This document shows positions 4,713 to 57,272 of a DNA stretch of 64,000 nucleotides, piece after piece. The notes below the pieces were generated by a model that saw only the letters and a list, made by a program, of their open reading frames with translations, searched no databases and was not told the origin of the DNA. The stretch comes from a phage: sequence record PV806337.1; one strand, written 5' to 3'. Position numbers and translations under genes: made by a program. Each line of letters starts with the position of its first letter. Positions within the stretch are counted from its first letter, which is position 1.

Positions 4713-6089
4713 ATGACTATTGATATTAATAAGCTGAAAGAAGAACTTGGTCTGGGTGATCTGGCTAAATCTCTGGAAGGTCTGACCGCTGCTCAGAAAG
4801 CTCAGGAAGCTGAACGTATGCGTAAAGAGCAGGAAGAAAAAGAACTGGCTCGTATGAATGACCTGGTTTCTAAAGCTGTTGGTGAAGACCGTAAGCGTCT
4901 GGAAGAGGCTCTGGATCTGGTTAAGTCTCTGGATGAGAAATCTAAGAAGAGCGCAGAACTGTTTGCACAAACTGTAGAAAAACAACAGGAAACTATTGTT
5001 GGTCTTCAGGACGAAATTAAATCTCTGCTAACAGCTCGTGAAGGTCGTTCCTTTGTTGGTGATAGTGTTGCTAAAGCACTGTACGGTACTCAGGAAAACT
5101 TTGAAGACGAAGTAGAAAAACTGGTTCTGTTGTCTTACGTAATGGAGAAAGGTGTATTCGAAACCGAACACGGTCAAAAACACCTGAAAGCAGTGAATCA
5201 GTCTTCTTCTGTAGAAGTTTCTAGTGAAAGCTATGAAACTATTTTCTCTCAGCGTATTATCCGTGACCTGCAGAAAGAGCTGGTAGTTGGCGCACTGTTC
5301 GAAGAACTGCCGATGTCCAGTAAGATTCTTACTATGCTGGTTGAACCGGATGCTGGTAAAGCTACTTGGGTTGCTGCTTCTACTTATGGTACCGATACAA
5401 CTACTGGTGAGGAAGTTAAAGGCGCTCTTAAAGAGATCCACTTCAGTACTTACAAACTGGCTGCTAAGTCCTTCATTACTGATGAAACTGAAGAAGATGC
5501 AATCTTCTCCCTGCTGCCACTACTGCGTAAACGTCTGATTGAAGCACACGCTGTTTCTATCGAAGAAGCCTTCATGACTGGTGATGGTTCCGGTAAGCCG
5601 AAAGGTCTGCTGACTCTTGCTAGTGAAGATAGTGCTAAAGTTATTACTGAAGCTAAAGCTGATGGTTCCGTACTGGTAACTGCTAAAACTATCTCTAAAC
5701 TGCGTCGTAAACTGGGCCGTCATGGTCTGAAACTGAGCAAACTGGTACTGATCGTATCTATGGATGCTTACTACGATCTGCTGGAAGATGAAGAATGGCA
5801 GGATGTTGCACAGGTTGGTAACGATGCTGTTAAACTGCAGGGTCAGGTTGGTCGTATTTATGGTCTGCCGGTTGTAGTTTCTGAATACTTCCCAGCTAAA
5901 GCTACTTCCGCAGAGTTCGCAGTTATTGTTTATAAAGATAACTTCGTAATGCCACGCCAGCGTGCTGTTACTGTTGAACGTGAGCGCCAAGCTGGTAAAC
6001 AGCGTGACGCATACTACGTTACTCAGCGTGTTAACCTGCAACGTTACTTTGCAAATGGCGTTGTATCTGGTGCTTACGCTGCATCTTAA
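4713..6089 (+). CDS. major capsid protein with N-terminal scaffolding-like domain
   Basis: 458 aa; N-terminal charged coiled-coil region then capsid-fold body; strongly biased high-expression codons (ctg, cgt, ggt); followed by strong terminator. Confidence 0.85.
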   Translation: MTIDINKLKEELGLGDLAKSLEGLTAAQKAQEAERMRKEQEEKELARMNDLVSKAVGEDRKRLEEALDLVKSLDEKSKKSAELFAQTVEKQQETIVGLQDEIKSLLTAREGRSFVGDSVAKALYGTQENFEDEVEKLVLLSYVMEKGVFETEHGQKHLKAVNQSSSVEVSSESYETIFSQRIIRDLQKELVVGALFEELPMSSKILTMLVEPDAGKATWVAASTYGTDTTTGEEVKGALKEIHFSTYKLAAKSFITDETEEDAIFSLLPLLRKRLIEAHAVSIEEAFMTGDGSGKPKGLLTLASEDSAKVITEAKADGSVLVTAKTISKLRRKLGRHGLKLSKLVLIVSMDAYYDLLEDEEWQDVAQVGNDAVKLQGQVGRIYGLPVVVSEYFPAKATSAEFAVIVYKDNFVMPRQRAVTVERERQAGKQRDAYYVTQRVNLQRYFANGVVSGAYAAS

Positions 6090-6110
6090 TACAGGCTTTT
6101 CAGCCGATAA

Positions 6111-6137
6111 GGAGAGCTTCGGCTCTCCTTTTTTATT
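6111..6137 (+). terminator. rho-independent terminator after major capsid gene
   Basis: GGAGAGC-TTCG-GCTCTCC hairpin followed by TTTTTTATT. Confidence 0.8.
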
Positions 6138-6148
6138 GGGAAAAATAA

Positions 6149-6661
6149 ATGCAAATAATCACAGCTGAAGACTATAGATTATATGGCGGGTTAAAACGAC
6201 CTGAATTAGAATCTGGAGTAGAGATGATGATTACTGCTGCCAATGCGCTGATTACTAGCCTTTTAGGTATGGATGATGCTGATGCGGTAGACCAGTTAAT
6301 CAATACAAAACCTACTCGTAAAAAATACTTCTTAAGTTCCCCCTCGGCTACTTCAGTAACCAAAATGACTATTAATGATAAGGAGATAGATCCCGAACAG
6401 TATAAGTTATACTCTGATGGGGTTATACTTCTTAAATTTAGTCCTCCAGAAGGTTATATGGATGTAGAGTACACACAAGGTGGATTTAACCCAATTCCTG
6501 AAGATCTCAAACTTGCAGCATGTATGCTAGTAGATCATTGGCATAAACAGGATTACCGTCAAGCTAAAACAATTGGCGGAGAAACAGTTACTTTTAATAA
6601 TACTAAGTCTGGTATTCCAGAACATATTCGTACTATTATTGAAGTTTACAGGAGAGTATAA
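6149..6661 (+). CDS. head completion / head-tail adaptor protein
   Basis: 170-aa ORF at the head-tail joining position after capsid gene; product assigned by synteny only. Confidence 0.55.
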   Translation: MQIITAEDYRLYGGLKRPELESGVEMMITAANALITSLLGMDDADAVDQLINTKPTRKKYFLSSPSATSVTKMTINDKEIDPEQYKLYSDGVILLKFSPPEGYMDVEYTQGGFNPIPEDLKLAACMLVDHWHKQDYRQAKTIGGETVTFNNTKSGIPEHIRTIIEVYRRV

Positions 6662-7428
6662 TGTCTCTTTCTGATTTAGCTACACAAATTATTAAGGAGC
6701 AGCTAGATAATGTTGGGCGTTCCGAGAACAATAAGAATACTGTTGTATATTCTGTTGAAACAGGACTAAAAGATCCTACTAGGGATGGTACTGTTGCTCA
6801 GGTATCTTTTAAGTTCTCAAAACCTGTATCCCAAGATCTCCTTAATGTTAGGACCGCTTCTATTCTAAAAGCAGTTTCTTCTAGCTTAGATCTAACAGGA
6901 GACTTAGGGGCTTTAGAAAGTCTTATTCAAGCAACCGCCGGTAAAAAATCCTCTGTAGGTAAAAAACGTTCTACTGGTAGAGTTCAAGTAAACTTTGGGG
7001 ATCCTAGAGACGTAGAAGATGGATATTCTGGTGCAGTAACAGGTGCTTCTGGTCGTTTTGTATCAAATAGTAATATGAAGGTTATTCTGGAGTTGGTTGC
7101 TAAAGAATACTTAATAAAGGATATGAAAAAAGCAGGAGCTCCCCTTAAATTTAGAACAGGTCGTTTTGCAAATTCTCTAAAAGTTAAAGATGTTATGCTT
7201 AGAGATGCTGGAACTAGCAAAGGTGCTCCTGAATTAAATGTTACATATAATTATATGGTACGTCCATATTCAGTATTTAATCCTGCAGTATCTACATATC
7301 GAAGATTGTCATTACGACCCTACCCAGGTGCTAGAAACCCCCAAAGACTAATTGGAGAGGCGATAGCTAAAGCTGCAAGAGACTTAATTCACTCCAGGTA
7401 CAAAATTAAGGTTAATCAAGGAACCTAA
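6661..7428 (+). CDS. neck / tail completion protein
   Basis: 255-aa ORF with AGGAGAG RBS; assigned by synteny. Confidence 0.5.
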   Translation: MSLSDLATQIIKEQLDNVGRSENNKNTVVYSVETGLKDPTRDGTVAQVSFKFSKPVSQDLLNVRTASILKAVSSSLDLTGDLGALESLIQATAGKKSSVGKKRSTGRVQVNFGDPRDVEDGYSGAVTGASGRFVSNSNMKVILELVAKEYLIKDMKKAGAPLKFRTGRFANSLKVKDVMLRDAGTSKGAPELNVTYNYMVRPYSVFNPAVSTYRRLSLRPYPGARNPQRLIGEAIAKAARDLIHSRYKIKVNQGT

Positions 7429-7431
7429 TAA

Positions 7432-7917
7432 ATGGATCACAGAACAAGTATAGCACAAGCTCTGGTTGACCGAATAGCCAAACAAATGGATGGCTCTCAA
7501 CCAGATGAATATTTTAATAACTTGTATGGAAACGTCTCACGTCAAACTTATAAGTTTGAGGAAATACGAGAGTTTCCTTATGTTGCAGTTCATATCGGAA
7601 CTGAAACTGGGCAGTATCTTCCCTCAGGTCAACAGTGGATGTTTTTAGAACTTCCTATCCTGGTGTATGATAAAGAGAAAACAGACATTCAAGAGCAACT
7701 TGAAAAACTCGTAGCGGATATAAAAACCGTTATTGACACAGGTGGAAATTTAGAATATACTGTTAGTAAACCTAATGGATCGACCTTCCCATGTGAGGCG
7801 ACTGATATGAGCATTACATCAGTTAGTACAGATGAGGGTCTACTGGCCCCATATGGTTTAGCAGAAATAAATGTAACAGTGAGGTATCAGCCTCCACGTA
7901 GGTCACTTCGCAGATAA
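7432..7917 (+). CDS. tail terminator protein
   Basis: 161-aa ORF directly upstream of tail tube gene; assigned by synteny. Confidence 0.5.
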   Translation: MDHRTSIAQALVDRIAKQMDGSQPDEYFNNLYGNVSRQTYKFEEIREFPYVAVHIGTETGQYLPSGQQWMFLELPILVYDKEKTDIQEQLEKLVADIKTVIDTGGNLEYTVSKPNGSTFPCEATDMSITSVSTDEGLLAPYGLAEINVTVRYQPPRRSLRR

Positions 7918-7943
7918 GTTACAGATTAGGAGAAAATAATTAA

Positions 7944-9350
7944 ATGTCTTTACAACTATTACGTAATACTCGAATCTTCGTGTCTACGGTTAAGACTGGT
8001 CACGATAAGACCAACACGCAAGAGATTCTAGTTCAGGATGATATTTCTTGGGGTCAGGACAGTAACTCAACAGATATTACTGTTAACGAAGCTGGTCCGC
8101 GTCCTACTCGTGGTTCTAAACGTTTTAACGATTCCTTGAATGCGGCTGAGTGGAGTTTTTCTACTTATATTCTGCCATACAAGGATAAAACCTCTAATAA
8201 ACAGATTGTTCCCGACTACATGTTATGGCATGCTCTTTCTAGTGGTAAAGCGTTAAACCTTGAGGGAGACACAGGTGCGCATAATAATGAAGCTAACTTC
8301 ATGGTTAACTTTAAAGATAACTCTTATCATGAGTTGGCTATGCTGCACATCTACATTCTTACTGACAAAGCATGGAGCTATATTGACTCTTGCCAGATCA
8401 ACCAGGCAGAAGTTAACGTTGATATTGAGGATATTGGTCGTGTAACTTGGTCTGGTAATGGTAATCAGCTCATCCCGTTAGATAGCCAACCATTTGATCC
8501 AGATGCACTAGGTATTGATGATGAAACCTATATGACTATTCAGAGTTCTTACATTAAGAACAAGTTAACTATCCTAAAAATTAAGGATATGGATTCTGAT
8601 AAGGCATATGATATTCCTATTACTGGTGGTACTTTTACCATTAATAACAACATCACGTACCTAACCCCGAATATTATGTCACGTGTAAATATTCCAATCG
8701 GCTCATTTACAGGTGCGTTTGAGTTAACGGGTTCTTTGACAGCATACCTTAATGATAAGTCTCTTGGTTCTATGGAACTGTACAAAGATCTTATCAAAAC
8801 CCTTAAGGTAGTTAACCGTTTTGAAATTGCACTTATTTTGGGTGGTGAATACGATGATGAGCGACCGGCAGCTGTGCTAGTTGCTAAACAGGCGCACGTT
8901 AATATCCCTACTATTGAGACTGATGATGTACTTGGTACTTCAGTAGAGTTTAAAGCTATTCCTACTGATTTGGATACTGGTGACGAAGGATACTTAGGCT
9001 TCTCTAACAAGTATACCAAAACTACAATAGCGAATCTAATTGCTACCGGAGATGGTGCTAAAACTCCTCCAGTTCCCGTTAAATCCATTACAGTTAAGTC
9101 GGCAGGTGAGGCTGTTTCTGTAACAAATAGTAATACTTTACAGATGTCTGTTGAGGTAACACCTCCAGAAGCTACTAATAAGGCTGTAACTTGGTCTATT
9201 TCTAGTGGTAACGCAGCTACGATTGATGCAGAATCTGGGTTATTAACAGCTGATGCCTCTAAAACTGGTGCAGTTACTGTGAAGGCTGTAGCTAAAGACG
9301 GTTCTGGTGTAGAAGGTACTAAAACTATCACAGTTAGTGCTGGTGGTTAA
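7944..9350 (+). CDS. tail tube protein with C-terminal Ig-like (Big_2-like) domain (pb6-like)
   Basis: 468 aa; AGGAGA RBS; C-terminal ~85 aa (SITVKSAGEAVSVTNSNTLQMSVEVTPPEATNKAVTWSISSG...) resembles bacterial Ig-like domain. Confidence 0.75.
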   Translation: MSLQLLRNTRIFVSTVKTGHDKTNTQEILVQDDISWGQDSNSTDITVNEAGPRPTRGSKRFNDSLNAAEWSFSTYILPYKDKTSNKQIVPDYMLWHALSSGKALNLEGDTGAHNNEANFMVNFKDNSYHELAMLHIYILTDKAWSYIDSCQINQAEVNVDIEDIGRVTWSGNGNQLIPLDSQPFDPDALGIDDETYMTIQSSYIKNKLTILKIKDMDSDKAYDIPITGGTFTINNNITYLTPNIMSRVNIPIGSFTGAFELTGSLTAYLNDKSLGSMELYKDLIKTLKVVNRFEIALILGGEYDDERPAAVLVAKQAHVNIPTIETDDVLGTSVEFKAIPTDLDTGDEGYLGFSNKYTKTTIANLIATGDGAKTPPVPVKSITVKSAGEAVSVTNSNTLQMSVEVTPPEATNKAVTWSISSGNAATIDAESGLLTADASKTGAVTVKAVAKDGSGVEGTKTITVSAGG

Positions 9351-9354
9351 ATAA

Positions 9355-10257
9355 ATGTACTACTCTCTAATGCGAGAGTCAAAAGTTATAGTTGAGTATG
9401 ATGGTAGGGCATTTCATTTTGATGCCCTATCAAACTATGATATACAGACTTCCTACGAGGAATTCAAGACTCTTCGTAGGACTGTTCATCATAGAACTAA
9501 CTATGCAGACTCTATTATAAATGCTCAAACCCCCTCTTCTATCTCTCTAGCAGTAAATTTCAGTAATACTCTTACAGAGGCTAACTTCTTTGAATGGTTA
9601 GGTTTTGATAGAAAAGGTAATACTTTCTTACTCCCACTATATAGTAGTAATATTGAACCTATTATGTTCAATATCTATATAGTAAATAAAGATAATAACT
9701 GTGTATATTTTGAAAACTGTTATGTATCTACGGTAGATTTTTCTTTAGATAAGAACATACCAATTCTTAATGTTGGTATTGAGTCTGGGAAATTCTCAGA
9801 AGTATCTACCTATAGAGAAGCAGCTTCTATTATACAGGGTGAAGTAATGTCTTACAGCCCAGTAATAGCTTCTACTAATGGCAGCATCTTACCCGGTCTT
9901 ATTTCTGCCTCTTTATCTTTCCAACAGCAGTGCTCCTGGAGAGAGGATAAGAGTGTTTTTGATATAAATAAAATTTATAATAATAAAAGAGCTTATGTAA
10001 ATGAAATGAATGCTTCGGCAACCATTTCTCTATATTACTTAAAACGTTTTGCAGGAGATATGGTTTACAATATCGAACCGGAGACAGATGTACCTTTAAA
10101 TATAAGAAATAATAATATTTCTATAGATTTTCCTTCAGCACGTATTACAAAACGCCTAGATTTCTCAGATGTGTATAGAGTTGAGTGGGATATTATACCT
10201 ACTGCTTCTTCAGACCCAGTGAGAATAGATTTCTTTGGAGAAATTAAAAATGATTAA
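9355..10257 (+). CDS. tail protein (p140-like)
   Basis: 300-aa Asn/Ser-rich ORF between tail tube and tape-measure genes. Confidence 0.5.
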   Translation: MYYSLMRESKVIVEYDGRAFHFDALSNYDIQTSYEEFKTLRRTVHHRTNYADSIINAQTPSSISLAVNFSNTLTEANFFEWLGFDRKGNTFLLPLYSSNIEPIMFNIYIVNKDNNCVYFENCYVSTVDFSLDKNIPILNVGIESGKFSEVSTYREAASIIQGEVMSYSPVIASTNGSILPGLISASLSFQQQCSWREDKSVFDINKIYNNKRAYVNEMNASATISLYYLKRFAGDMVYNIEPETDVPLNIRNNNISIDFPSARITKRLDFSDVYRVEWDIIPTASSDPVRIDFFGEIKND

Positions 10258-10654
10258 TTTAAAAGATATTACTCTTGATACTCGTACTATTACTCTTTCC
10301 TACCCAGGTATGCCGAACTTTAAATTAGAACTTAACTATATGTCTCGTGCTACCTCTAAACGTGTTATTTCTTCTGCTAAACGCGATGAATGGGTTAATG
10401 GTACTTTGATTCAGGTACAGGATGATGATAAGTTCATTGAAGCCTTCGTTGACGCAGCTATTAAAGGTTGGACCGGTTTGACTGTAGGTGACGTTGAAAA
10501 ACTGATGCTGATTGAAACAGATGCTGATCCTGCTACTGAAGTTCCTTTTAGCCGCGATAATGCTGTAATGCTCATGCAGAACTCTGCTGCGTTTGATTCT
10601 TGGATCAACCAGACAGTGTTCCACTTAGACACTTTTCGTAGCCCAAAAGCGTAA
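10250..10654 (+). CDS. putative tail assembly chaperone
   Basis: 134 aa from ATG 10250 with GGAG RBS; classical chaperone position upstream of tape measure; ORF-track start 10235 is a TTG. Confidence 0.45.
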   Translation: MINLKDITLDTRTITLSYPGMPNFKLELNYMSRATSKRVISSAKRDEWVNGTLIQVQDDDKFIEAFVDAAIKGWTGLTVGDVEKLMLIETDADPATEVPFSRDNAVMLMQNSAAFDSWINQTVFHLDTFRSPKA

Positions 10655-10715
10655 AGAACTCCTAGATGCTGTTGCTGATTTTGCAGATAAATGTATTAAA
10701 AGCTCAGCATCTAAA

Positions 10716-11084
10716 ATGACCAAACAACAATATTTAATACTTTGTGAGTCAATGGGTATAGAACCTGATCCTAAGGCTATGCCTGTTGAACTCGAAGATT
10801 TTCCACCTATTGTATCTATTAGTATGAATATCTATAACAGTCTGATTGACTGTTTCATACCGGGTGACTTTCCTATTTTTATAGGTAAGGATAAGGCTGC
10901 ATTAGGTGTTTTATTTGATATTTACGGGATTACTGATCCTATAGAAAAAGAATTTGTTCTACACATTATCAATATATTTGATGCTAAAGCTGTAGATGCT
11001 GCACGTAAACGTGCTGAGCAGCATAAACCGCAAAACGGAAGGATTCCTAACGTTAAGCCACATGCTAGATCTCGTGCACGGTAA
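10716..11084 (+). CDS. putative tail assembly chaperone, second ORF (possible frameshift extension)
   Basis: 122-aa ORF lacking Shine-Dalgarno; its frame is open from 10629 and overlaps the end of the upstream ORF. Confidence 0.4.
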   Translation: MTKQQYLILCESMGIEPDPKAMPVELEDFPPIVSISMNIYNSLIDCFIPGDFPIFIGKDKAALGVLFDIYGITDPIEKEFVLHIINIFDAKAVDAARKRAEQHKPQNGRIPNVKPHARSRAR

Positions 11085-11119
11085 AAGTTTCCTCCAATGG
11101 GCGTTCCACGATGAGGCTT

Positions 11120-11151
11120 GGCTCTGGGTGATTTGCCCAGAGCCTTTTTTA
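11120..11151 (+). terminator. rho-independent terminator
   Basis: GGCTCTGGG-tgatttg-CCCAGAGCC hairpin followed by TTTTTT. Confidence 0.75.
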
Positions 11152-11167
11152 TTGGGAAAAATAAAAC

Positions 11168-14100
11168 ATGACTGATAAGCTAATACGAGAATTACTAATA
11201 GACGTTAAACAGAAGGGGGCAACTCGTACTGCAAAGTCTATTGAAAACGTATCTGATGCGTTGGAAAATGCTGCTGCTGCTTCCGAACTGACAAATGAGC
11301 AGTTAGGTAAAATGCCCAGAACTCTTTATTCCATTGAGAGGGCAGCAGACAGAGCAGCGAAAAGTCTTACTAAAATGCAAGCTAGTAGGGGTATGGCTGG
11401 TATCACTAAATCCATTGACGGTATTGGTGATAAGCTAGACTACCTGGCTATCCAGCTTATTGAAGTAACAGATAAACTAGAAATTGGATTCGATGGAGTT
11501 TCTAGATCTGTTAAAACAATGGGTAATGATGTTGCAGCTGCAACAGAAAAAGTACAAGATAGATTATATGATACTAATAGAGCATTAGGTGGCACAGCTA
11601 GGGGTTTTAATGATACTGCTGGTGCCGCTGGTAGAGCTTCTAGAGCTATTGGTAATACTTCTGGTTCAGCACGTGGTGCAACTCGTGATTTTGCGGCAAT
11701 GGCTAAGATCGGTGGTAGTCTACCTATTATGTACGCAGCTCTTGCTTCCAACATCTTCGTTTTGCAATCAGCATTTGAACAACTTAAACTAGGTGATCAG
11801 CTAAATCGTCTAGAAAAATTTGGTGTTATAGTAGGTACTCAGACAGGTACTCCTGTTCAGACCCTAGCTAGATCACTACAAGAAGCTGCTGGATATGCTA
11901 TTTCTTTTGAGGAAGCAATGAGACAGGCATCTTCAGCATCTGCTTATGGATTTGATGCCGAACAACTTAATAAATTTGGTTTAGTAGCTCGTCGTGCTGC
12001 TGCTGTTCTTGGTGTTGATATGACTGATGCACTTAACCGTGTAATTAAGGGCGTATCTAAACAAGAAATCGAACTTCTGGATGAACTTGGTGTCACCATC
12101 CGTCTTAATGACGCATACGCTGATTATGTTAAACAGTTAAATGCTGCAAACACAGGTATAACATATAATGTTAATAGTCTTACCACTTTCCAGAAACAAC
12201 AAGCATACGCTAACGCGGTAATTGCTGAATCTACTAAGCGGTTTGGCTACCTAGATGAAGTACTACGTGCAACTCCATGGGAGCAATTTGCTGCTAATGC
12301 AGATGCTGCACTAAGAAAAATACAACAAGCTGCTGCTAAGTATTTAGGGCCAGTAATTGATGCTATCAACACAGTATTTTATACATCTCAGGCTTCTATA
12401 TCTGCTGAGGCAGCTAGAGCTCAAGAAAAAACTAATAGACAGATAGACCCTACCAACGTTGGTGCTGTTGCTTTAAGTTTAGCTGCTTCTGAAGAAGGCT
12501 ATAATAAAGCTCTAGATATGTATAAGGAATCTCTTGATAAGCGTAATAAGCTAAAATCTGAGTTCGATAAACGAATGGAACAAGCAGATTTCTATACAAA
12601 ACTAGCTATACGTCAAGTTGGTGAAGGTATTCCTGTTGGTCTTGCAGCAGCAGGTGCTTCGGAGGCCAATAAGCAATTTGTAGCAGAAACTGCAGCTATG
12701 GGTCTACAAGTAACTAGACTTGGTAAGGAAGTAGAGGATTCTACAGAGAATCTCAATGCTTGGAAATCAGCGTATCAAGCTGCTGGGGCCGCTGCTGCAA
12801 AGGCTAGTCCAGAGTTTCAGAAGCAAATTAATCTACAGAGAGATACTACTGACCCTGATGCTGTATACGATTTTAACTCTACTGTATTAAAAGGACTAAC
12901 TGAGCAGCAGAAAGCGTACAATCAGACTAAGAAAACGGCTAGTGACTTAGCTAATGACATACAGAACGTTGCTCAGAATACAGATACTGCTGCTAAAACT
13001 AGTGCTACTTTAGCAGATGCTATAAAAAATATAGAATCTCTATCTCTAGGTACTGGTAAAAGTGCAGATGAGTACGTTAAAAATCTTAACCTAGGCTATA
13101 ACACTCTGTCTGAAATGAAAACTGCGTCTCAGGCCTTATCTGAGTATGTTAAACTAACCGGTAATGAAACTAAAAATCAGTTAGCAGTTCAACAGAAGAT
13201 AGCTGATGTATATAACCAAACTAAGGATAAAGAAAAAGCACAGGAAGCCGGTAGGCGTTTAGAACTCCAACAGTTAGAAGAGCAAGAAGCTGCTTTACGC
13301 CGTGTTCTTCAAACAAACCAGGGAAATAAAGCTGTTGAGAAAGAAATTGAAAAAATTCAGCTGGAGAAACTTAAACTTACCAATCAGGGTATGGAAGCTC
13401 AGAAGAAGGTCAAGGATTACACAGATAAAATTCTTGGTGTAGATCGTGAGATAGCTCTCTTAAATAACCGTACTATGACAGATACTCAGTATCGTCTAGC
13501 ACAGTTAAATCTTGAATTGACCATTGAAAAAGAGAAGTACGAATGGTATACAAAACAAGCGGACAAACAGAAAGAGGCTGAACAGTCTAGACGTTCTCAA
13601 GCCCAAATTGAACGTGAAATATGGAAATTCCGTCAGGACCAGCAAGCTGAAATGACCAGTAAAAGGCAAGAAGCCTTTGAAAATACTCTAACTTCCATGT
13701 TCCCTCTGGCAGGGGAAATGCAAAAAATGGAAATGCAGTTAGATTTTTATACTCAGATGAAAGAACTTACCAAAGGTAATGCTAATGAGCAAATGCGCTG
13801 GAATGCTGAAATAGCTAAGACAAGGGCTCAGATGTCAGCTTTAACAGCACAACGTAATGCTCAGATGCAGCAACAGGTAGGTTCTTCTGTTGGAGCTACT
13901 TATACTCCTACAACTGGTCTATCTGGAGCAGATAAAGATTTTGCTGATATGCAGAATAGGATGTCTTCGTATGACCAAGCAATTTCTAAACTATCTGAGT
14001 TAAATTCCGAAGCAACTGCTGTAGCTCAAAGCATGGGTAATTTAACTAACTCTATGATTCAGTTCTCCCAGGGATCCCTAGATACTACGTCTATGATTGC

Positions 14101-14851
14101 TTCTGGTATGCAGACTGTAGCCTCGATGATTCAATATAGTACTAGCCAACAAGTTAGTGCAATTGATCAGGCTATTGCAGCAGAACAGAAACGTGATGGT
14201 AAATCTGAGGCATCTAAAGCTAAGCTGAAGAAACTAGAAGCTGAAAAGCTGAAGATTCAACAAGACGCAGCTAAGAAGCAGATCATCATCCAAACTGCAG
14301 TAGCAGTTATGCAGGCAGCAACAGCTGTACCATACCCGTTCTCTATCCCTCTGATGATAGCGGCAGGTTTAGCAGGTGCCTTAGCTCTTGCTCAAGCATC
14401 TTCTGCATCTGGCATGTCTAGTATAGGGGATTCTGGGGCTGATACCACTAGTTATTTAACCTTAGGAGAGCGTCAGAAGAATATAGATGTGTCCATGTCT
14501 GCTAATGCAGGTGAACTATCTTATATTCGTGGCGATCAAGGTATAGGGAGTGCCAACTCTTTCGTTCCTCGTGCTGAGGGTGGTAATATGTACCCTGGGG
14601 TTAGCTATCAAATGGGTGAGCATGGTACAGAAGTAGTTACCCCTATGGTTCCTATGAAAGCTACGCCTAATGATGAGCTAAAAACCTCATCTAACTCAAC
14701 TTCAGGAAGACCTATCATCTTGAATATTAGTGCTATGGATGCTGCAAGTTTTAGAGAGTTTGCTTCTAGTAATAGTGGTGCTCTAAGAGACGCAGTAGAA
14801 TTAGCTCTGAATGAGAACGGTGCTAGTCTGAAAACATTAGGAAATTCTTAA
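11168..14851 (+). CDS. tail tape measure protein (pb2-like)
   Basis: 1227 aa; long Ala/Gln-rich coiled coils, hydrophobic segment near C-terminus (PFSIPLMIAAGLAGALALA); position and size typical of TMP. Confidence 0.9.
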   Translation: MTDKLIRELLIDVKQKGATRTAKSIENVSDALENAAAASELTNEQLGKMPRTLYSIERAADRAAKSLTKMQASRGMAGITKSIDGIGDKLDYLAIQLIEVTDKLEIGFDGVSRSVKTMGNDVAAATEKVQDRLYDTNRALGGTARGFNDTAGAAGRASRAIGNTSGSARGATRDFAAMAKIGGSLPIMYAALASNIFVLQSAFEQLKLGDQLNRLEKFGVIVGTQTGTPVQTLARSLQEAAGYAISFEEAMRQASSASAYGFDAEQLNKFGLVARRAAAVLGVDMTDALNRVIKGVSKQEIELLDELGVTIRLNDAYADYVKQLNAANTGITYNVNSLTTFQKQQAYANAVIAESTKRFGYLDEVLRATPWEQFAANADAALRKIQQAAAKYLGPVIDAINTVFYTSQASISAEAARAQEKTNRQIDPTNVGAVALSLAASEEGYNKALDMYKESLDKRNKLKSEFDKRMEQADFYTKLAIRQVGEGIPVGLAAAGASEANKQFVAETAAMGLQVTRLGKEVEDSTENLNAWKSAYQAAGAAAAKASPEFQKQINLQRDTTDPDAVYDFNSTVLKGLTEQQKAYNQTKKTASDLANDIQNVAQNTDTAAKTSATLADAIKNIESLSLGTGKSADEYVKNLNLGYNTLSEMKTASQALSEYVKLTGNETKNQLAVQQKIADVYNQTKDKEKAQEAGRRLELQQLEEQEAALRRVLQTNQGNKAVEKEIEKIQLEKLKLTNQGMEAQKKVKDYTDKILGVDREIALLNNRTMTDTQYRLAQLNLELTIEKEKYEWYTKQADKQKEAEQSRRSQAQIEREIWKFRQDQQAEMTSKRQEAFENTLTSMFPLAGEMQKMEMQLDFYTQMKELTKGNANEQMRWNAEIAKTRAQMSALTAQRNAQMQQQVGSSVGATYTPTTGLSGADKDFADMQNRMSSYDQAISKLSELNSEATAVAQSMGNLTNSMIQFSQGSLDTTSMIASGMQTVASMIQYSTSQQVSAIDQAIAAEQKRDGKSEASKAKLKKLEAEKLKIQQDAAKKQIIIQTAVAVMQAATAVPYPFSIPLMIAAGLAGALALAQASSASGMSSIGDSGADTTSYLTLGERQKNIDVSMSANAGELSYIRGDQGIGSANSFVPRAEGGNMYPGVSYQMGEHGTEVVTPMVPMKATPNDELKTSSNSTSGRPIILNISAMDAASFREFASSNSGALRDAVELALNENGASLKTLGNS

Positions 14852-14856
14852 AACTG

Positions 14857-14887
14857 GAGGAGGACTTTGAGTCCTCCTTTTCTTTAT
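14857..14887 (+). terminator. rho-independent terminator after tape measure gene
   Basis: AGGAGGAC-tttg-GTCCTCC hairpin followed by TTTTCTTTAT. Confidence 0.75.
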
Positions 14888-14904
14888 GGAAAAATAAAAA
14901 TTTC

Positions 14905-14933
14905 TTGATAAAATTTTCTAATACTATTATAAT
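14905..14933 (+). promoter_or_regulatory. sigma70-type promoter upstream of Dit gene
   Basis: TTGATA -35, 17-bp spacer, TATAAT -10; followed by RBS AAAGAGGAGAAATTAACT and ATG at 14961. Confidence 0.55.
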
Positions 14934-14960
14934 ATTGTTATTAAAGAGGAGAAATTAACT

Positions 14961-15575
14961 ATGAGATTACCAGACCCATACACGAATCCAGAACTTTCAG
15001 GCTTAGGATTCGAAAGTGTTAACCTGATTGATAATGACCCAGTAATTCGTGATGAGTTACCAAATGGTAAAGTTAACGAAGTTAAGGTATCTGCTCAATA
15101 CTGGGGTATAAATATTTCTTATCCAGAATTATTTCCAGATGAATATAGTGTTCTAGATGCTTTTATTCTAGAATACAAAAGGACTGGTGGTTATATAGAT
15201 GTTATATTACCCCAATACGAAGCTTTTAGAGTTAGAGGTAATACTAGTCTAGTAAATATACCTGCTGGACAGAAGGGTTCTAATATAACTATGAATACAA
15301 AAGGACTTCTTACAGGTACTCCAAAACCGGGGGATCTATTTAAGCTGTCTAACCACCCAAAAGTATATAAAATAACATCATTTAACAAATCAGGTAATAC
15401 ATGGTCTATAAACTTATACCCTGATTTATTTATAACTACTACTGGAGCGGAGAAGCCAGTATTTAATGGAATACTATTTAGAACAAAACTCATGAATGGT
15501 GATGCTTTTGGATCTACACTAAATAATAACGGAACATATTCCAACATCTCATTAAATTTACGGGAAAGTCTATGA
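14961..15575 (+). CDS. distal tail protein Dit (pb9-like)
   Basis: 204 aa immediately after TMP; strong RBS. Confidence 0.7.
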   Translation: MRLPDPYTNPELSGLGFESVNLIDNDPVIRDELPNGKVNEVKVSAQYWGINISYPELFPDEYSVLDAFILEYKRTGGYIDVILPQYEAFRVRGNTSLVNIPAGQKGSNITMNTKGLLTGTPKPGDLFKLSNHPKVYKITSFNKSGNTWSINLYPDLFITTTGAEKPVFNGILFRTKLMNGDAFGSTLNNNGTYSNISLNLRESL

Positions 15576-18421
15576 AAAAAATATTAGATAGTGCTAGAAA
15601 CTACTTAAAAAATAATAGCAGAATAAAAACTGCTAGTCTAATTTCTCTAGAGTTACCTGGCTCTACTGGTACTAGTACTGCTTTTATTTATTTAACTGAT
15701 TATTTTAGGGATGTACTATATAATGGCATCCTATACCAGGCAGGTAAAGTTAAGTCTATTAGCTCACACAAACAAAATAGAGATTTATCTATTGGTAGTC
15801 TATCTTTTACTATTACTGGTACAGCACAAGATGAAGTACTAAAACTAGTACAAAATGGTGTATCCTTCTTAGATAGAACAGTATCAATTCATCAAGCAAT
15901 TATTACTGAGGATGGTTCTATTCTACCAGTAGACCCAGATACAAATGGTCCTTTACTGTATTTTAGGGGGAGAATTACTGGAGGAGGTATTAAAGATAAC
16001 ATTAGTACCTCTGGAGTAGGAACCTCTACAATTACCTGGAATTGTTCTAACCAATTCTATGACTTTGATAGAGTTAATGGTAGATATACTGATGACGCTT
16101 CCCATAGGGGGCTTGAAGTTGTAGCAGGACAATTAGTTCCATCTAACGGAGCTAAAAGACCTGAGTACCAAGAAGACTATGGGTTCTTTCATGCTAATAA
16201 AAGTATATCTATACTAGCAAAGTACCAAGTACAGGAAGAAAGGTATAAGCTAAAATCAAAGAAAAAACTATTTGGCTTATCTAGAAGCTATAGCCTTAAA
16301 AAGTACTATGAAACTGTTACTAAGGAAGTAGATATAGATTTTAACCTTGCTGCTAAATATATACCAGTAGTTTATGGTGTGCAGAAAATACCGGGAATAC
16401 CTATTTTTGCGGATACAGAACTACACAATCCTAATATAGTTTATGTAGTATATGCCTTTGCTGAAGGGGAGATAGACGGTTTTCTTGATTTTTCCTTTGG
16501 CGATAACCCTATGATTTGTATGAATGATAATGATAGTTCTTCCAGAACCTGCTTTGGTGTTAAAAAAGTGGCTGGGGACACCATGCAAAGAATAGCGTCA
16601 GGAACACCTTCTAGTAGTCCTTCCGTGCATGGGCAGGAGTATAAGTATAATGATGGGAATGGTGACATAAGAATTTGGACGTATCATGGAAAACCTGACC
16701 AAACGGCTTCTGAAGTACTAGTAGATATAGCTAAAGAACGTGGGTTCTACCTTCAGAATATGAATGGCAATGGACCGGAGTACTGGGATGCTAGGTATAA
16801 ACTACTAGATACTGCATACGCAGTGGTGCGCTTCACTATTAATGAAAATAGAACTGAGATTCCTGAAGTTAGTGCTGAAATTCAAGGTAAAAAAGTAAAA
16901 GTCTATCATTCTGATGGTAGAGTAACTGCTAATAGTACTAGTTTAAATGGTATTTGGCAAACACTTGATTACTTAACCTCTGATAGATATGGCGCTAATA
17001 TTACCATTGATCAGTTCCCCCTTCAGCAATTAATACAGGAAGCAGCTATTTTAGATATTATAGATGAATCCTACCAAGTATCTTGGCAGCCATATTGGAG
17101 ATACGTTGGGTGGACTGATCCACTAGCAGAAAATAGACAAATAGTACAAATGAATACTATTCTGGATACATCTGAATCAGTATTTAAAAATGTGCAAGGT
17201 TTGTTAGAGTCCTATGGTGGGGCTATTAACAATTTATCTGGCCAGTATAGGGTTACTGTAGAAAAATACTCTAATACTCCATTAGAGATTAATTTTCTAG
17301 ATACTTACGGTGATTTGGAGCTATCTGATACTACTGGTAGAAATAAATTCAACTCAGTTCAAGCATCTATTGTGGATCCTGCCCTTAGTTGGAAAACTAA
17401 TGCCATTACATTCTATAACTCCAAGTATAAGGAACAGGACAAGAACCTAGATAAAAAACTACAACTATCTTTTGCTAATATTACTAATTATTATACTGCA
17501 AGAAGTTTTGCGGATAGGGAACTTAAGAAATCCAGATACTCAAGAACACTTTCTTTCTCATTGCCATATCAATTCATTGGTATTGAGCCTAATGATGCTA
17601 TTGCATTCACGTATGATCGTTATGGATGGAACAAAAAGTATTTCCTAGTTGATGAGGTTGAAAATTCTAGGGAAGGAAAGATAAATGTTACTCTACAGGA
17701 GTATGGAGAAGATGTATTCATCAACTCTGAGCAGGTTGATAATAGCGGTAATGATATTCCTGATATTAGTAATAATGTCCTTCCTCCTAGAGACTTTAAG
17801 TATACCCCTACTCCTGGCGGTTTAGTAGGCTCTATAGGTAAAAATGGTGAGTTATCCTGGCTTCCGAGTCTAACCAATAATGTAGTTTATTACTCTATTG
17901 TACATTCAGGCCATGCCGAACCTTACATAGTACAACAGTTAGAGACCAACCCTAACGAACGTATGATCCAAGAAATAATTGGAGAACCAGCAGGTCTGGC
18001 TATATTTGAGATAAGGGCAGTAGATATTAATGGTAGAAGAAGTTCCCCGGTGACTCTGTCTATAGAACTTAACTCTGCTAAAAACCTTAGTGTAGTATCC
18101 AATTTTAGGGTAATTAATACTGCTTCCGGAGATGTAACTGAGTTTGTTGGCCCAGATGTGAAACTAGCCTGGGATAGAATACCTGAAGAAGATATAATAG
18201 AGAGTATATTTTATACCCTTGAAATACACGATTCACAAAATAGGATGTTAAGAAGTGTACGTATTGAAAATCAGTACACTTATGACTATTTATTAACGTA
18301 TAATAAGGCAGACTTCGCTCTCCAGAACAGCGGTGCTCTAGGTATAAATAGAAAATTATATTTTCGTATTAGGGCTGAAGGGGATGATGGAGAACAGTCT
18401 GTGGAGTGGGCATCCATTTAA
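15572..18421 (+). CDS. baseplate hub / tail-associated protein (pb3-like)
   Basis: 949 aa following Dit; C-terminal fibronectin-III-like beta-rich repeats. Confidence 0.75.
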   Translation: MKKILDSARNYLKNNSRIKTASLISLELPGSTGTSTAFIYLTDYFRDVLYNGILYQAGKVKSISSHKQNRDLSIGSLSFTITGTAQDEVLKLVQNGVSFLDRTVSIHQAIITEDGSILPVDPDTNGPLLYFRGRITGGGIKDNISTSGVGTSTITWNCSNQFYDFDRVNGRYTDDASHRGLEVVAGQLVPSNGAKRPEYQEDYGFFHANKSISILAKYQVQEERYKLKSKKKLFGLSRSYSLKKYYETVTKEVDIDFNLAAKYIPVVYGVQKIPGIPIFADTELHNPNIVYVVYAFAEGEIDGFLDFSFGDNPMICMNDNDSSSRTCFGVKKVAGDTMQRIASGTPSSSPSVHGQEYKYNDGNGDIRIWTYHGKPDQTASEVLVDIAKERGFYLQNMNGNGPEYWDARYKLLDTAYAVVRFTINENRTEIPEVSAEIQGKKVKVYHSDGRVTANSTSLNGIWQTLDYLTSDRYGANITIDQFPLQQLIQEAAILDIIDESYQVSWQPYWRYVGWTDPLAENRQIVQMNTILDTSESVFKNVQGLLESYGGAINNLSGQYRVTVEKYSNTPLEINFLDTYGDLELSDTTGRNKFNSVQASIVDPALSWKTNAITFYNSKYKEQDKNLDKKLQLSFANITNYYTARSFADRELKKSRYSRTLSFSLPYQFIGIEPNDAIAFTYDRYGWNKKYFLVDEVENSREGKINVTLQEYGEDVFINSEQVDNSGNDIPDISNNVLPPRDFKYTPTPGGLVGSIGKNGELSWLPSLTNNVVYYSIVHSGHAEPYIVQQLETNPNERMIQEIIGEPAGLAIFEIRAVDINGRRSSPVTLSIELNSAKNLSVVSNFRVINTASGDVTEFVGPDVKLAWDRIPEEDIIESIFYTLEIHDSQNRMLRSVRIENQYTYDYLLTYNKADFALQNSGALGINRKLYFRIRAEGDDGEQSVEWASI

Positions 18422-38809: not shown

Positions 38810-39577
38810 TTATTCAGCAGCCGCAGCTTTTGCATCCAGTTTAGCACGCTTAGCGGCACCATCATAGTCCTTAGCAACCAGACCACGACGAGACAGCATA
38901 GATTTAACACCGCGCTCAGACTTACCAGTTTTCTCAGCGATCTCAGCAACAGTCATGTTAACCAGATCCAGACCTTCTAACAGATCTTCACGAGTTTTAG
39001 CACTTGAGGTTTCCTGTACCGGCATAGCAGCGATACGACCTTCACGAAGCAGGCTCAGAGCTTTACCGCGGATCTGCTTAATATTACGACCGAAGTGAGC
39101 AGCGATAGCTTCAATAGTAGCACCAGCAACAACCTGATTAACAAAATCAGTTTCTTCATCTGGAGTGAAGGAACGAACAGCAGCAGCTTTTTCGGTTGGC
39201 TTAACAGAAGCGGTCATTTCCAGACTCAGAATCTTACCCTGTACCTGCTTAGCACCGAACTGACCACCAGCCACAGCAGCAGCGATTTCAGCATAGGTAT
39301 ACTGACCAGCATGAGCGTTCAGGAAATCAACCAGTTCAGCTTCCTGCTCAGGAGTCCACGGGGATTTCTGTACTTCGTTAGCTTTCTGTACTTCAAAACC
39401 TTCTTTACGCAGTTTAGAGCCAACAGAGCGAGCGGTAACATCTTTGCCAGTTTCAGCGGCCAGTTCAGCAGCGATAGCAGCTACTTGTTCTTGAGAGATT
39501 ACAGCAACACCCAGAGCAGTGGCTTTTGCTTTCAGAGACTCGGTTACACCTTCTACGTTCCAGTTCAGTTTAGACAT
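38810..39577 (-). CDS. abundant DNA-binding protein with four tandem HTH-like repeats (D5-like)
   Basis: 255 aa; four ~30-aa repeats of pattern xxEIAxxxGKxxxxVxxxLSxxGL; high-expression codon bias. Confidence 0.55.
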   Translation of the reverse strand: MSKLNWNVEGVTESLKAKATALGVAVISQEQVAAIAAELAAETGKDVTARSVGSKLRKEGFEVQKANEVQKSPWTPEQEAELVDFLNAHAGQYTYAEIAAAVAGGQFGAKQVQGKILSLEMTASVKPTEKAAAVRSFTPDEETDFVNQVVAGATIEAIAAHFGRNIKQIRGKALSLLREGRIAAMPVQETSSAKTREDLLEGLDLVNMTVAEIAEKTGKSERGVKSMLSRRGLVAKDYDGAAKRAKLDAKAAAAE

Positions 39578-57204: not shown

Positions 57205-57232
57205 AAGGAGATCTTCGGGTCTCCTTTTTCTT
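57205..57232 (+). terminator. rho-independent terminator after nrdA
   Basis: AGGAGATC-ttcg-GGTCTCCT hairpin followed by TTTTCTTTG. Confidence 0.75.
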
Positions 57233-57243
57233 TGAAATTTTAC

Positions 57244-57272
57244 TTGCTAATCGCTACCAGATTTGCTATAAT
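57244..57272 (+). promoter_or_regulatory. T5-type sigma70 promoter upstream of nrdB
   Basis: TTGCTA, 17-bp spacer, TATAAT. Confidence 0.75.

What the first reader, a model, noticed from the sequence alone, without database searches (positions are those of the whole stretch)
6129..14900. Identical 20-nt TTTTTTATTGGGAAAAATAA element joining terminators to SD-less late-gene starts
The same 20-mer follows the terminator hairpins at 6129-6148 and 11145-11164 and runs straight into the ATG of the next gene, with no Shine-Dalgarno. A related TTTATGGAAAAATAAAAA follows the tape-measure terminator (14884-14900). It may combine a terminator U-tract with an A/U-rich translation enhancer, or be a late-promoter element.
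Basis: seen in the sequence. Interest (0 to 1): 0.45.

Follow-up and report, generated by a model that had tools for sequence, protein, structure and literature searches.

The report
Terminator tail fused to weak ribosome site
The repeated 20-base motif in this T5-like phage is the U-rich tail of a transcription terminator joined directly to a weak but real ribosome-binding site for the next gene, which is a compact and ordinary arrangement rather than a new signal.

Summary
The window is a T5-like phage (Tequintavirus). The exact 20-mer TTTTTTATTGGGAAAAATAA is real. It occurs only twice in about 110 kb: after the major-capsid-gene terminator (6129-6148) and after the tail-chaperone terminator (11145-11164). 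Chance expectation is 0.04.

It is a composite, not a unit. TTTTTTATT is the terminator U-tract. GGGA, followed by an A-rich spacer of 7 or 10 nt, is a weak Shine-Dalgarno site (-4.2 kcal/mol, bottom fifth of this phage's genes). In distant relatives the same position holds GAGG, AAGGA, AGGTGA, GGAG or AGGAGG, so the starts are not SD-less.

In T5 itself a homing endonuclease gene sits right after TTTTTTATT and replaces the 3' half. That shows the two halves can be separated.

The third "related" site is a different class. It is a terminator followed by the annotated sigma-70 promoter P-G25, with the A-rich run in the UP-element position.

The likely function is leaky termination plus weak translation, which would keep the head-tail adaptor and the tape measure at low levels.

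The T5 reference record already annotates all three terminators. Both junctions are conserved well beyond synonymous sites, and the site-1 hairpin is identical across genera. That depth of conservation is mildly notable and not fully explained. Low interest.

The parts
4713..6089 (+). major capsid (head) protein gene, upstream unit ended by terminator T1
   Evidence: ORF list. Annotation of relatives NBEco002 and T5.
6094..6105 (+). small GGC-N6-GCC hairpin in the spacer between the stop codon and T1
   Evidence: Stem kept and loop sequence varies in Tequinta-, Priuna-, Sugarland-, Novosib- and Hongcheonvirus. Function not shown.
6109..6130 (+). terminator T1 hairpin AAGGAGAGC-TTCG-GCTCTCCTT (UUCG tetraloop)
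   Evidence: Terminator scan. Fold z = -4.1. Annotated as a putative rho-independent terminator in T5 NC_005859. Identical in five genera.
6129..6148 (+). 20-mer copy 1: U-tract TTTTTTATT (6129-6137), weak SD GGGA (6138-6141) and A-rich spacer AAAATAA (6142-6148)
6149..6661 (+). head-tail adaptor / head completion gene. No promoter of its own before P-J5 (7733-7761).
10716..11084 (+). second tail assembly chaperone ORF, last gene before terminator T2
11088..11119 (+). conserved non-coding block TTTCCTCCAATGGGCGTTCCACGATGAGGCTT just upstream of T2, function unknown
   Evidence: Conserved in at least 5 genera. 1-nt indels exclude coding. One copy per genome. No Rfam hit and no covariation-backed fold.
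11120..11144 (+). terminator T2 hairpin GGCTCTGGG-tgatttg-CCCAGAGCC
   Evidence: 7 of 10 stem pairs show compensatory changes across genera. Annotated as a terminator in T5 and in Providencia phage PR1.
11145..11164 (+). 20-mer copy 2: U-tract (11145-11153), weak SD GGGA (11154-11157) and A-rich spacer, which continues with AAC to the ATG
11168..14851 (+). tape measure protein gene (pb2 homologue). No promoter between T2 and its start.
14856..14880 (+). terminator T3 hairpin after the tape measure gene
   Evidence: Annotated in T5.
14883..14900 (+). related A-rich stretch TTTATGGAAAAATAAAAA: the end of the T3 U-tract plus A/T-rich DNA at about -38 to -57 of promoter P-G25 (UP-element position)
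   Evidence: Not conserved outside Tequintavirus.
14905..14933 (+). sigma-70 promoter TTGATA-17-TATAAT (T5 'P-G 25')
   Evidence: Promoter scan 11/12. T5 annotation.
14961..15575 (+). distal tail protein gene with strong SD (GAGGAG, -9.1 kcal/mol)

Best explanation
Each copy of the 20-mer is a composite of two ordinary signals that abut in a very compact genome. The first signal is the U-tract (UUUUUUAUU) of an intrinsic terminator. One terminator ends the abundant major-capsid transcript. The other ends the major-tail/chaperone transcript. The second signal is the ribosome-binding site of the next gene, which starts immediately afterwards. It is a weak Shine-Dalgarno GGGA, then an A-rich spacer of 7-10 nt, then AUG.

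Most RNA polymerases stop in the U-tract. That would give stable hairpin-ended mRNAs for the high-copy proteins. The downstream genes are the head-tail adaptor and neck genes, and the tape measure. They have no promoter of their own, so they can only be made from read-through transcripts. On those transcripts the hairpin folds and leaves the U/A-rich RBS mostly unpaired, and the weak SD gives modest initiation. Leaky termination plus a weak RBS would set the low stoichiometry of these proteins.

Shown here: sequence anatomy, SD complementarity and spacing, hairpin covariation, conservation, and absence of an intervening promoter. Inferred: partial termination, read-through dependence, and any enhancer effect of the U/A-rich context.

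The two copies are identical because the junctions follow the same design throughout the family. In Tequinta- and Epseptimavirus they sit at, or have been homogenised to, the same sequence.
For: - Identity of the locus. The window is a Tequintavirus, 96% identical to EC105 and NBEco002. Gene order comes from annotated relatives.
- Terminators. Hairpin plus T-tract at 6109-6137 and 11120-11153. Both are annotated as putative rho-independent terminators in T5. Seven of 10 T2 stem pairs have compensatory changes across genera.
- Weak SD. GGGA gives -4.2 kcal/mol at 7 and 10 nt spacing, and 79% of the window's genes have a stronger SD. Real SD-less starts score about 0. TTGGGA-N7-ATG also serves a third terminator-RBS junction at 42222-42180 on the minus strand.
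- Positional homology. The same slot holds GAGG and AAGGA (metagenomic L153), AGGTGA (Proteus phage), AGAGG (Pectobacterium phage), AGGAGG and AGGAG (Aeromonas phage), and AAGGAG and GGAG (Vibrio phages).
- Separability. In T5 the HNH endonuclease gene T5.141 begins right after TTTTTTATT at site 2. The tape measure gene then uses a different upstream sequence.
- Natural variants of site 1. These change T-run length (T13), change GGG to GG, or change GGG to ATTAGG.
- No promoter. None lies between T1 and P-J5 or between T2 and the tape measure start.
- Not a general signal. The motif is absent elsewhere in the genome.
- Generic layout. An unrelated Pseudomonas myovirus has the same arrangement: hairpin, TTTTTCATT, GGAG, ATAAAAAA, ATG.
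- Conservation. The whole intergenic regions are more conserved than flanking third codon positions (0.98 and 0.97 against 0.78-0.85). The 20-mer is no more conserved than the rest of the intergenic region.
Against: - No transcript or translation data were available, so termination efficiency, read-through and use of GGGA as an SD are inferred.
- A generic terminator plus weak RBS does not obviously need the observed depth of conservation. The site-1 hairpin and T-tract are identical in genera whose adaptor proteins are only 20-32% identical. The 49-mer is 100% identical in at least 359 phage records.
- Exact 20/20 identity (25/25 in Epseptimavirus) between two non-homologous junctions is more than shared design strictly requires.
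- GGGA at -4.2 kcal/mol is only moderately above background. 15% of random 19-mers are as strong.
Confidence: 0.8

Rival explanations
1. The junction is a specifically recognised regulatory RNA site and not only a passive terminator plus RBS. A conserved phage or host factor would bind the hairpin/UUAUUGGGAAAAAUAA region. Candidates are an antiterminator, a translational repressor of the T4 RegA type, CsrA or Hfq, or a processing nuclease. Binding would time or tune expression of the neck genes and the tape measure.
For: - Conservation is far beyond flanking synonymous sites.
- The site-1 hairpin, T-tract and TTGGG are identical across genera with 20-57% identical flanking proteins.
- The 20-25-mers at two different junctions are identical.
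- UUAUU/AAUAA can form a weak stem that displays GGGAAA in a loop, as predicted in the site-1 MFE.
- Each terminator is preceded by an extra conserved upstream element, GGC..GCC at site 1 and the 11088-11119 block at site 2.
Against: - The 3' half varies between genera (GGGTAAAAT, GGAAAAAAT, AGGTGAAATT, AGAGGTATATA), so no common recognition sequence survives beyond T-tract plus purines.
- T5 itself lacks the 3' half at site 2 and is viable.
- The AU stem is not predicted at site 2 and shows no consistent covariation.
- There are only two sites per genome.
- No candidate factor was identified.
Confidence: 0.1
2. SD-independent initiation: the genes are translated through S1-mediated capture of the U/A-rich leader, and GGGA is irrelevant.
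For: - The leader is U- and A-rich and predicted to be largely unpaired.
- The SD is weak.
- The window does contain genuinely SD-less starts, including one directly after a terminator at 30233-30204 on the minus strand.
Against: - A purine-rich SD-like element occupies exactly this position in every relative examined, and is canonical in the distant ones.
- The G-run is among the conserved columns.
- The spacing of 7-10 nt is optimal for an SD.
Confidence: 0.07
3. The 20-mer is, or contains, a late-promoter or UP-like element that drives transcription re-initiation after the terminator.
For: The related A-rich sequence at site 3 lies just upstream of the -35 of a real promoter, P-G25.
Against: - No -35/-10 pair of at least 9/12 lies in or just downstream of either copy.
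- A transcript starting downstream of the motif would lack the start codon.
- T5 late promoters are standard sigma-70 promoters (PMC7472727).
- T5 annotates no promoter at either site.
- The motif is absent upstream of the other late genes.
Confidence: 0.03

Closest known systems
Intrinsic (Rho-independent) terminators used as intra-operon attenuators in phage late operons. These include the putative terminators already annotated in phage T5 (NC_005859) after D20-21/pb8, after T5.142 and after D18-19/pb2.
   Same: GC-rich hairpin, a 9-nt U-tract, a position just after a highly expressed structural gene, and downstream genes without their own promoter. The T5 record annotates the same three sites.
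   Different: Nothing structural. What is not in the annotation is that the U-tract abuts the next RBS with no spacer, and that the two junctions share 20-25 identical bases.
Weak Shine-Dalgarno RBS with an A/U-rich spacer, and S1-dependent A/U-rich translational enhancers (established knowledge: Boni et al. 1991; Komarova et al. 2002, 2005)
   Same: Short SD core (GGGA), 7-10 nt A-rich spacer, and U-rich single-stranded sequence 5' of the SD.
   Different: Here the U-rich tract is primarily the terminator tail. An enhancer role is not demonstrated, and accessibility is only modestly above average.
Terminator-promoter composite junctions of T5 (for example T3 plus P-G25)
   Same: Site 3 and three other sites in the window (57207, 50907, 41888) have a hairpin, then TTTTTCTTT, then A/T-rich DNA, then a -35.
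   Different: Sites 1 and 2 have no promoter. An RBS and ATG follow directly.
T4 RegA-type translational operators (AU-rich sites at start codons of several mRNAs)
   Same: An AU-rich sequence next to the AUG that is shared by more than one mRNA.
   Different: Only two sites. No identified repressor. The sequence is not conserved as such across genera. It is replaceable in T5.

Membership tests
Intrinsic (Rho-independent) terminator | GC-rich stem-loop (stem of at least 5-7 bp, loop 3-8 nt) on the coding strand downstream of a stop codon | tested here: met
   6109-6130 has 9 bp with a UUCG loop and a core dG of -12.0. 11120-11144 has 9-11 bp and dG -19.1. 14856-14880 has dG about -11.9.
Intrinsic (Rho-independent) terminator | U-tract of about 7-9 nt immediately 3' of the stem | tested here: met
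   TTTTTTATT follows both stems directly.
Intrinsic (Rho-independent) terminator | Stem maintained by compensatory substitutions in relatives | tested here: met
   Site 2: 7 of 10 pairs have double changes. Site 1: invariant in enterobacterial genera and replaced by different hairpins of the same style in Aeromonas phages, Vibrio phages and the metagenomic relative L153.
Intrinsic (Rho-independent) terminator | RNA 3' ends and partial or complete termination in vivo or in vitro | not testable with these tools
   No T5 Term-seq or 3'-end mapping was found in the literature searches.
Shine-Dalgarno ribosome-binding site | Complementarity to the 16S rRNA 3' end | tested here: met
   GGGA pairs 4 bp at -4.2 kcal/mol. 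This is weak: 79% of genes are stronger and 15% of random 19-mers are as strong.
Shine-Dalgarno ribosome-binding site | Spacing of about 5-10 nt to the start codon | tested here: met
   7 nt at site 1 and 10 nt at site 2.
Shine-Dalgarno ribosome-binding site | Homologous position occupied by an SD in relatives | tested here: met
   GAGG, AAGGA, AGGTGA, AGAGG, AGGAGG, AGGAG, AAGGAG and GGAG occupy the same slot.
SD-less / leaderless initiation | Absence of any SD-like element within about 20 nt upstream of the start | tested here: not met
   GGGA is present. True SD-less starts in the window score +0.2 to -1.7 kcal/mol.
Sigma-70 (T5 late) promoter | -35 and -10 hexamers with a 16-18 nt spacer, positioned to include the downstream start codon in the transcript | tested here: not met
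   No match of at least 9/12 overlaps or directly follows 6129-6148 or 11145-11164. The motif ends 0-3 nt from the ATG. A promoter is found only downstream of site 3, at 14905-14933 with 11/12.
UP element | A/T-rich block at about -38 to -59 of a promoter | tested here: inconclusive
   Only site 3 lies at that position relative to P-G25. The match to the UP consensus was judged by eye, and the function is not testable here.
Dispersed repeat or mobile element | Multiple copies in varied contexts, with terminal repeats or target duplications | tested here: not met
   There are two copies only, both at the same kind of junction. IMG/VR hits to the 17-mer core are mostly unrelated AT-rich chance matches.

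The most novel reading that the evidence does not exclude
The junctions, above all the site-1 unit, are sequence-specifically recognised regulated attenuators or operators. The site-1 unit is GGC..GCC, then AAGGAGAGC-UUCG-GCUCUCCUU, then UUUUAUUGGG, and it is invariant across at least five Demerecviridae genera. A conserved phage or host factor would control read-through into, or translation of, the neck genes and the tape measure. The conserved 3'-UTR block at 11088-11119, which carries a CCUCC anti-SD-like motif, would be part of such a system or a 3'-UTR-derived sRNA.
Probability: 0.1. Interest if true: 0.55.

Novelty: already known. Interest (0 to 1): 0.15.

Why it matters
The finding mainly serves as a caution for motif hunting. 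A statistically striking exact repeat can be two ordinary signals, a terminator U-tract and a weak RBS, placed back to back.

Biologically it fits a simple dosage scheme in T5-like phages. Abundant capsid and tail-tube/chaperone messages end at strong hairpins. Low-copy neck proteins and the tape measure are made from read-through transcripts with weak ribosome sites.

Two things could repay an experiment. One is the unusually deep conservation of the site-1 hairpin and junction. The other is the unexplained conserved block upstream of the site-2 terminator. T5 late-gene regulation is still poorly understood (PMC7472727), and Term-seq or ribosome profiling of a T5 infection would settle both cheaply.

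Tried and rejected
- **IMG/VR scan for TTTTTTATTGGGNAAAA.** It gave more than 120 hits, mostly in unrelated contigs (low-complexity chance matches). It was uninformative and only a few hits were T5-like.
- **Late-promoter reading.** Rejected after the promoter scan, the T5 annotation and the literature.
- **Coding explanation for the conserved site-2 upstream block.** A frame-1 ORF (10996-11175) reads through the terminator and the motif. It was rejected because 1-nt indels occur among close and distant relatives.
- **Rfam search of 5500-15500 at E up to 5.** It returned only a chance snoRNA hit.
- **RNAalifold on the site-2 region.** It supports only the terminator stem and gives no fold for the upstream block.
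- **Weak AU hairpin UUUAUU/AAUAAA displaying GGGAAA.** It is predicted at site 1 only and was not pursued, because it is AU-only and not conserved.
- **T5 nick-site idea.** The BF23 paper gave no consensus to test, so the idea was dropped.
- **The search for related loci with a chaperone alignment.** It failed because no stretch was conserved enough.
- **DNA pattern scan for the site-2 block.** It returned only T5-like genomes with no new diversity.
- **Literature searches for T5 transcript-end mapping.** They found nothing usable.
Full report
**What the window is.** The region 5500-15500 is 94-97% identical to many T5-like phages (Tequintavirus, Demerecviridae), for example EC105, NBEco002, S130/S131 and T5 itself. 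By transfer from annotated relatives and the ORF list, the gene order is as follows:
- portal, decoration/tail protein, protease
- major capsid protein (4713-6089)
- head-tail adaptor (6149-6661), tail completion, tail terminator
- major tail protein (7944-9350), tail tube/baseplate protein
- two tail assembly chaperone ORFs (about 10250-10654 and 10716-11084)
- tape measure protein (11168-14851)
- distal tail protein (14961-15575), then the pb3 homologue

**The observation.**
- The exact 20-mer TTTTTTATTGGGAAAAATAA is at 6129-6148 and 11145-11164.
- It occurs nowhere else in the window with up to 3 mismatches (0.04 expected by chance).
- It does not occur in the remaining 48 kb of the close relative S131.
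- Copy 1 abuts the ATG at 6149.
- Copy 2 is followed by AAC and then the ATG at 11168.
- The 'related' 18-mer is at 14883-14900, one base off from the reported start. It is followed by TTGATA-17-TATAAT and not by a start codon.

**Anatomy.**
- Each copy begins at the foot of a strong hairpin.
  - T1 is AAGGAGAGC-UUCG-GCUCUCCUU at 6109-6130.
  - T2 is GGCUCUGGG-ugauuug-CCCAGAGCC at 11120-11144.
- TTTTTTATT is therefore a standard terminator U-tract.
- The T5 reference record annotates putative rho-independent terminators at exactly these three places. It also annotates promoter 'P-G 25' after the third, and 'P-J 5' inside the tail-terminator gene, which corresponds to window 7733-7761.
- No promoter is annotated or predicted between T1 and P-J5, or between T2 and the tape measure start.

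**The 3' half is a ribosome-binding site.**
- I computed duplex energies between the 16S 3' end and positions -22 to -4 of 56 gene starts in the window. The median is -6.0 kcal/mol.
- The two genes score -4.2 kcal/mol (GGGA, 4 bp). That is weaker than 79% of genes and clearly above the genuinely SD-less starts (+0.2 to -1.7).
- The spacing from GGGA to the ATG is 7 and 10 nt.
- TTGGGA-N7-ATG also follows a third terminator, at 42222-42180 on the minus strand. ACGGGAAAGTCTATG precedes the pb3-like gene. GGGA is thus a recurrent weak SD in this phage.
- A-rich spacers such as AAAATAA are the norm for this genome's ribosome sites. An example is TTGGAGAAAAATAATAATG at 39577 on the minus strand.

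**Comparative evidence.** I extracted both junctions from 32 IMG/VR relatives and from representatives of other Demerecviridae genera. The layout hairpin, U-tract, purine-rich element, A-rich spacer, ATG is kept at both junctions throughout the family. The GGG slot varies as follows:

| Relative | Site 1 | Site 2 |
|---|---|---|
| Metagenomic L153 (57% MCP identity) | GAGG | AAGGA |
| Klebsiella Sugarlandvirus | GGGT | GGAA |
| Proteus Novosibvirus | GGGT | AGGTGA |
| Pectobacterium Hongcheonvirus | AGAGG | GGAA |
| Aeromonas Shenzhenvirus | AGGAGG | AGGAG |
| Vibrio phages | AAGGAG or GGGG | GGAG or AGGT |

- This positional homology with canonical SDs is the main argument that the starts are not SD-less.
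- An unrelated Pseudomonas myovirus (PA10) shows the same design: GGGGAGC-TTCG-GCTCCC, TTTTTCATT, GGAG, ATAAAAAA, ATG. The design is therefore generic.

**Separability.**
- In T5 itself the HNH endonuclease gene T5.141 starts right after GAGCCTTTTTTATT at site 2.
- The GGGAAAAATAA half is gone there, and the tape measure gene is preceded by ...ACAGGAAAACATTAGATG.
- In HildyBeyeler-like phages a homing endonuclease sits between the capsid stop codon and T1 and leaves T1 and the junction intact.
- Natural site-1 variants change the T-run length (T13), change GGG to GG, or change GGG to ATTAGG.
- The 20-mer is therefore not an indivisible element.

**Conservation.**
- Among 27-29 distinct Tequinta- and Epseptimavirus sequences, the intergenic regions are 0.98 (site 1) and 0.97 (site 2) identical to the window.
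- Flanking third codon positions are 0.78-0.85 identical.
- The 20-mer is no more conserved than the rest of the intergenic region.
- T2's stem shows compensatory changes in 7 of 10 pairs across genera, which is good evidence for an RNA hairpin.
- T1's hairpin and U-tract are identical in Tequinta-, Epseptima-, Priuna-, Sugarland-, Novosib- and Hongcheonvirus. The adaptor proteins of these genera are only 20-32% identical (Sugarlandvirus 69%) and their capsid proteins about 56%.
- The 49-mer 6103-6151 is 100% identical in at least 359 phage records.
- In Epseptimavirus the two junctions share 25 identical bases including the ATG.
- This depth of conservation exceeds what a generic terminator needs and is the only unusual aspect.

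**Site 3 is a different class.**
- The A-rich run lies about -38 to -57 from the -35 hexamer of P-G25 (14905-14910). That is the UP-element position.
- The next gene has its own strong SD at -9.1 kcal/mol.
- Three more terminator-promoter composites in the window look alike, with TTTTTCTTT, then A/T-rich DNA, then CTTGC.
- GGAAAAATAA at site 3 is not kept outside Tequintavirus.

**Mechanism (committed).**
- These are leaky intrinsic terminators fused to weak RBSs.
- Most transcripts from upstream late promoters end in the U-tract. That gives hairpin-stabilised mRNAs for the capsid protein and for the tail tube and chaperones.
- Read-through transcripts carry the adaptor and neck genes and the tape measure.
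- These are translated at low efficiency from GGGA in an accessible U/A-rich context. The unpaired probability is at the 66th and 82nd percentile of genes.
- This matches the very different copy numbers needed in the virion.
- Shown: anatomy, SD complementarity and spacing, covariation, conservation, lack of promoters, and separability.
- Inferred: partial termination, read-through dependence, and any S1-type enhancement by the U-tract.
- Confidence is about 0.8.

**Rivals.**
- A specifically recognised regulatory RNA site: 0.1. The deep conservation favours it. Genus-specific 3' halves and the T5 replacement count against it.
- Strictly SD-independent initiation: 0.07.
- A late-promoter or UP element at sites 1 and 2: 0.03. 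It is contradicted, by the geometry, and by PMC7472727, which states that T5 late genes use strong sigma-70 promoters.

**Comparison with what is known, and novelty.**
- The terminators are already annotated in T5.
- A weak SD next to a terminator is ordinary.
- The point that the two junctions share an identical 20-25-mer and are deeply conserved appears not to be annotated. It does not define a new kind of element.
- Verdict: a real repeat with an ordinary explanation. Interest is 0.15.

Noticed in passing
window 11088-11119: A conserved non-coding block, TTTCCTCCAATGGGCGTTCCACGATGAGGCTT, lies between the chaperone stop codon and terminator T2. It is kept almost unchanged in Tequinta-, Epseptima-, Priuna-, Sugarland- and Novosibvirus, and more weakly in Hongcheonvirus and L153. 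1-nt indels exclude coding. There is one copy per genome, no Rfam match, and no covariation-backed fold. It contains an anti-SD-like CCUCC. It could be the body of a 3'-UTR-derived sRNA ending at T2, or a CCUC..GAGG insulating hairpin.
   Followed up: partly
window 6094-6105: A small GGC-N5-6-GCC hairpin lies between the capsid stop codon and terminator T1. The stem is kept and the loop sequence differs in five genera.
   Followed up: partly
window 6103-6151: The T1 hairpin and junction are 100% identical in at least 359 phage records. They are identical across genera whose neighbouring adaptor proteins are only 20-32% identical. This is far more conserved than the adjacent genes.
   Followed up: partly
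L002 (T5) 15295-16071; L131, L144 and L157 upstream of the site-1 terminator: Homing endonuclease genes are inserted at both junctions in some relatives. T5.141 sits directly after the site-2 U-tract. A homing endonuclease sits between the capsid stop and T1 in HildyBeyeler-like phages. The conserved junctions look like insertion hot spots.
   Followed up: partly
window 10630-10720: The second chaperone ORF (ATG 10716) has no SD (-0.1 kcal/mol). Its frame is open from about 10630 and overlaps the end of the first chaperone ORF (stop 10652-10654) in the +1 frame, near CCA AAA GCG TAA. This may be a programmed frameshift of the G/GT type, but +1 (or -2) rather than -1.
   Followed up: no
window 14940-14966: ATTAAAGAGGAGAAATTAACTATGAGA, the RBS and first codons of the distal tail protein gene downstream of P-G25, matches the 'RBSII' ribosome site of pQE expression vectors as I remember it. 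This is from memory and was not checked with a tool.
   Followed up: no
window 42222-42180 (-) and 30233-30204 (-): Two more terminator-to-start junctions exist. One again uses TTGGGA-N7-ATG. The other (GGGGC-TTCG-GCCCC, then TTCTTTTTAACTT, then ATG) has no SD at all (-1.7 kcal/mol) and is a better candidate for SD-independent initiation than the reported sites.
   Followed up: no
window 57207-57250 (+), 50907-50860 (-), 41888-41840 (-): Terminator-promoter composites share TTTT(T)CTTT/ATTT, then A/T-rich DNA, then a (C)TTGC -35. They are of the same class as site 3. UUCG-tetraloop hairpins recur at 6111-6128, 57207-57224 and 30233-30218.
   Followed up: no
L161 (Pseudomonas phage PA10) 1500-1545: An unrelated myovirus carries a near-copy of the design: GGGGAGC-TTCG-GCTCCC, TTTTTCATT, GGAG, ATAAAAAA, ATG. 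This suggests convergent use of a UUCG-loop terminator fused to an RBS.
   Followed up: partly
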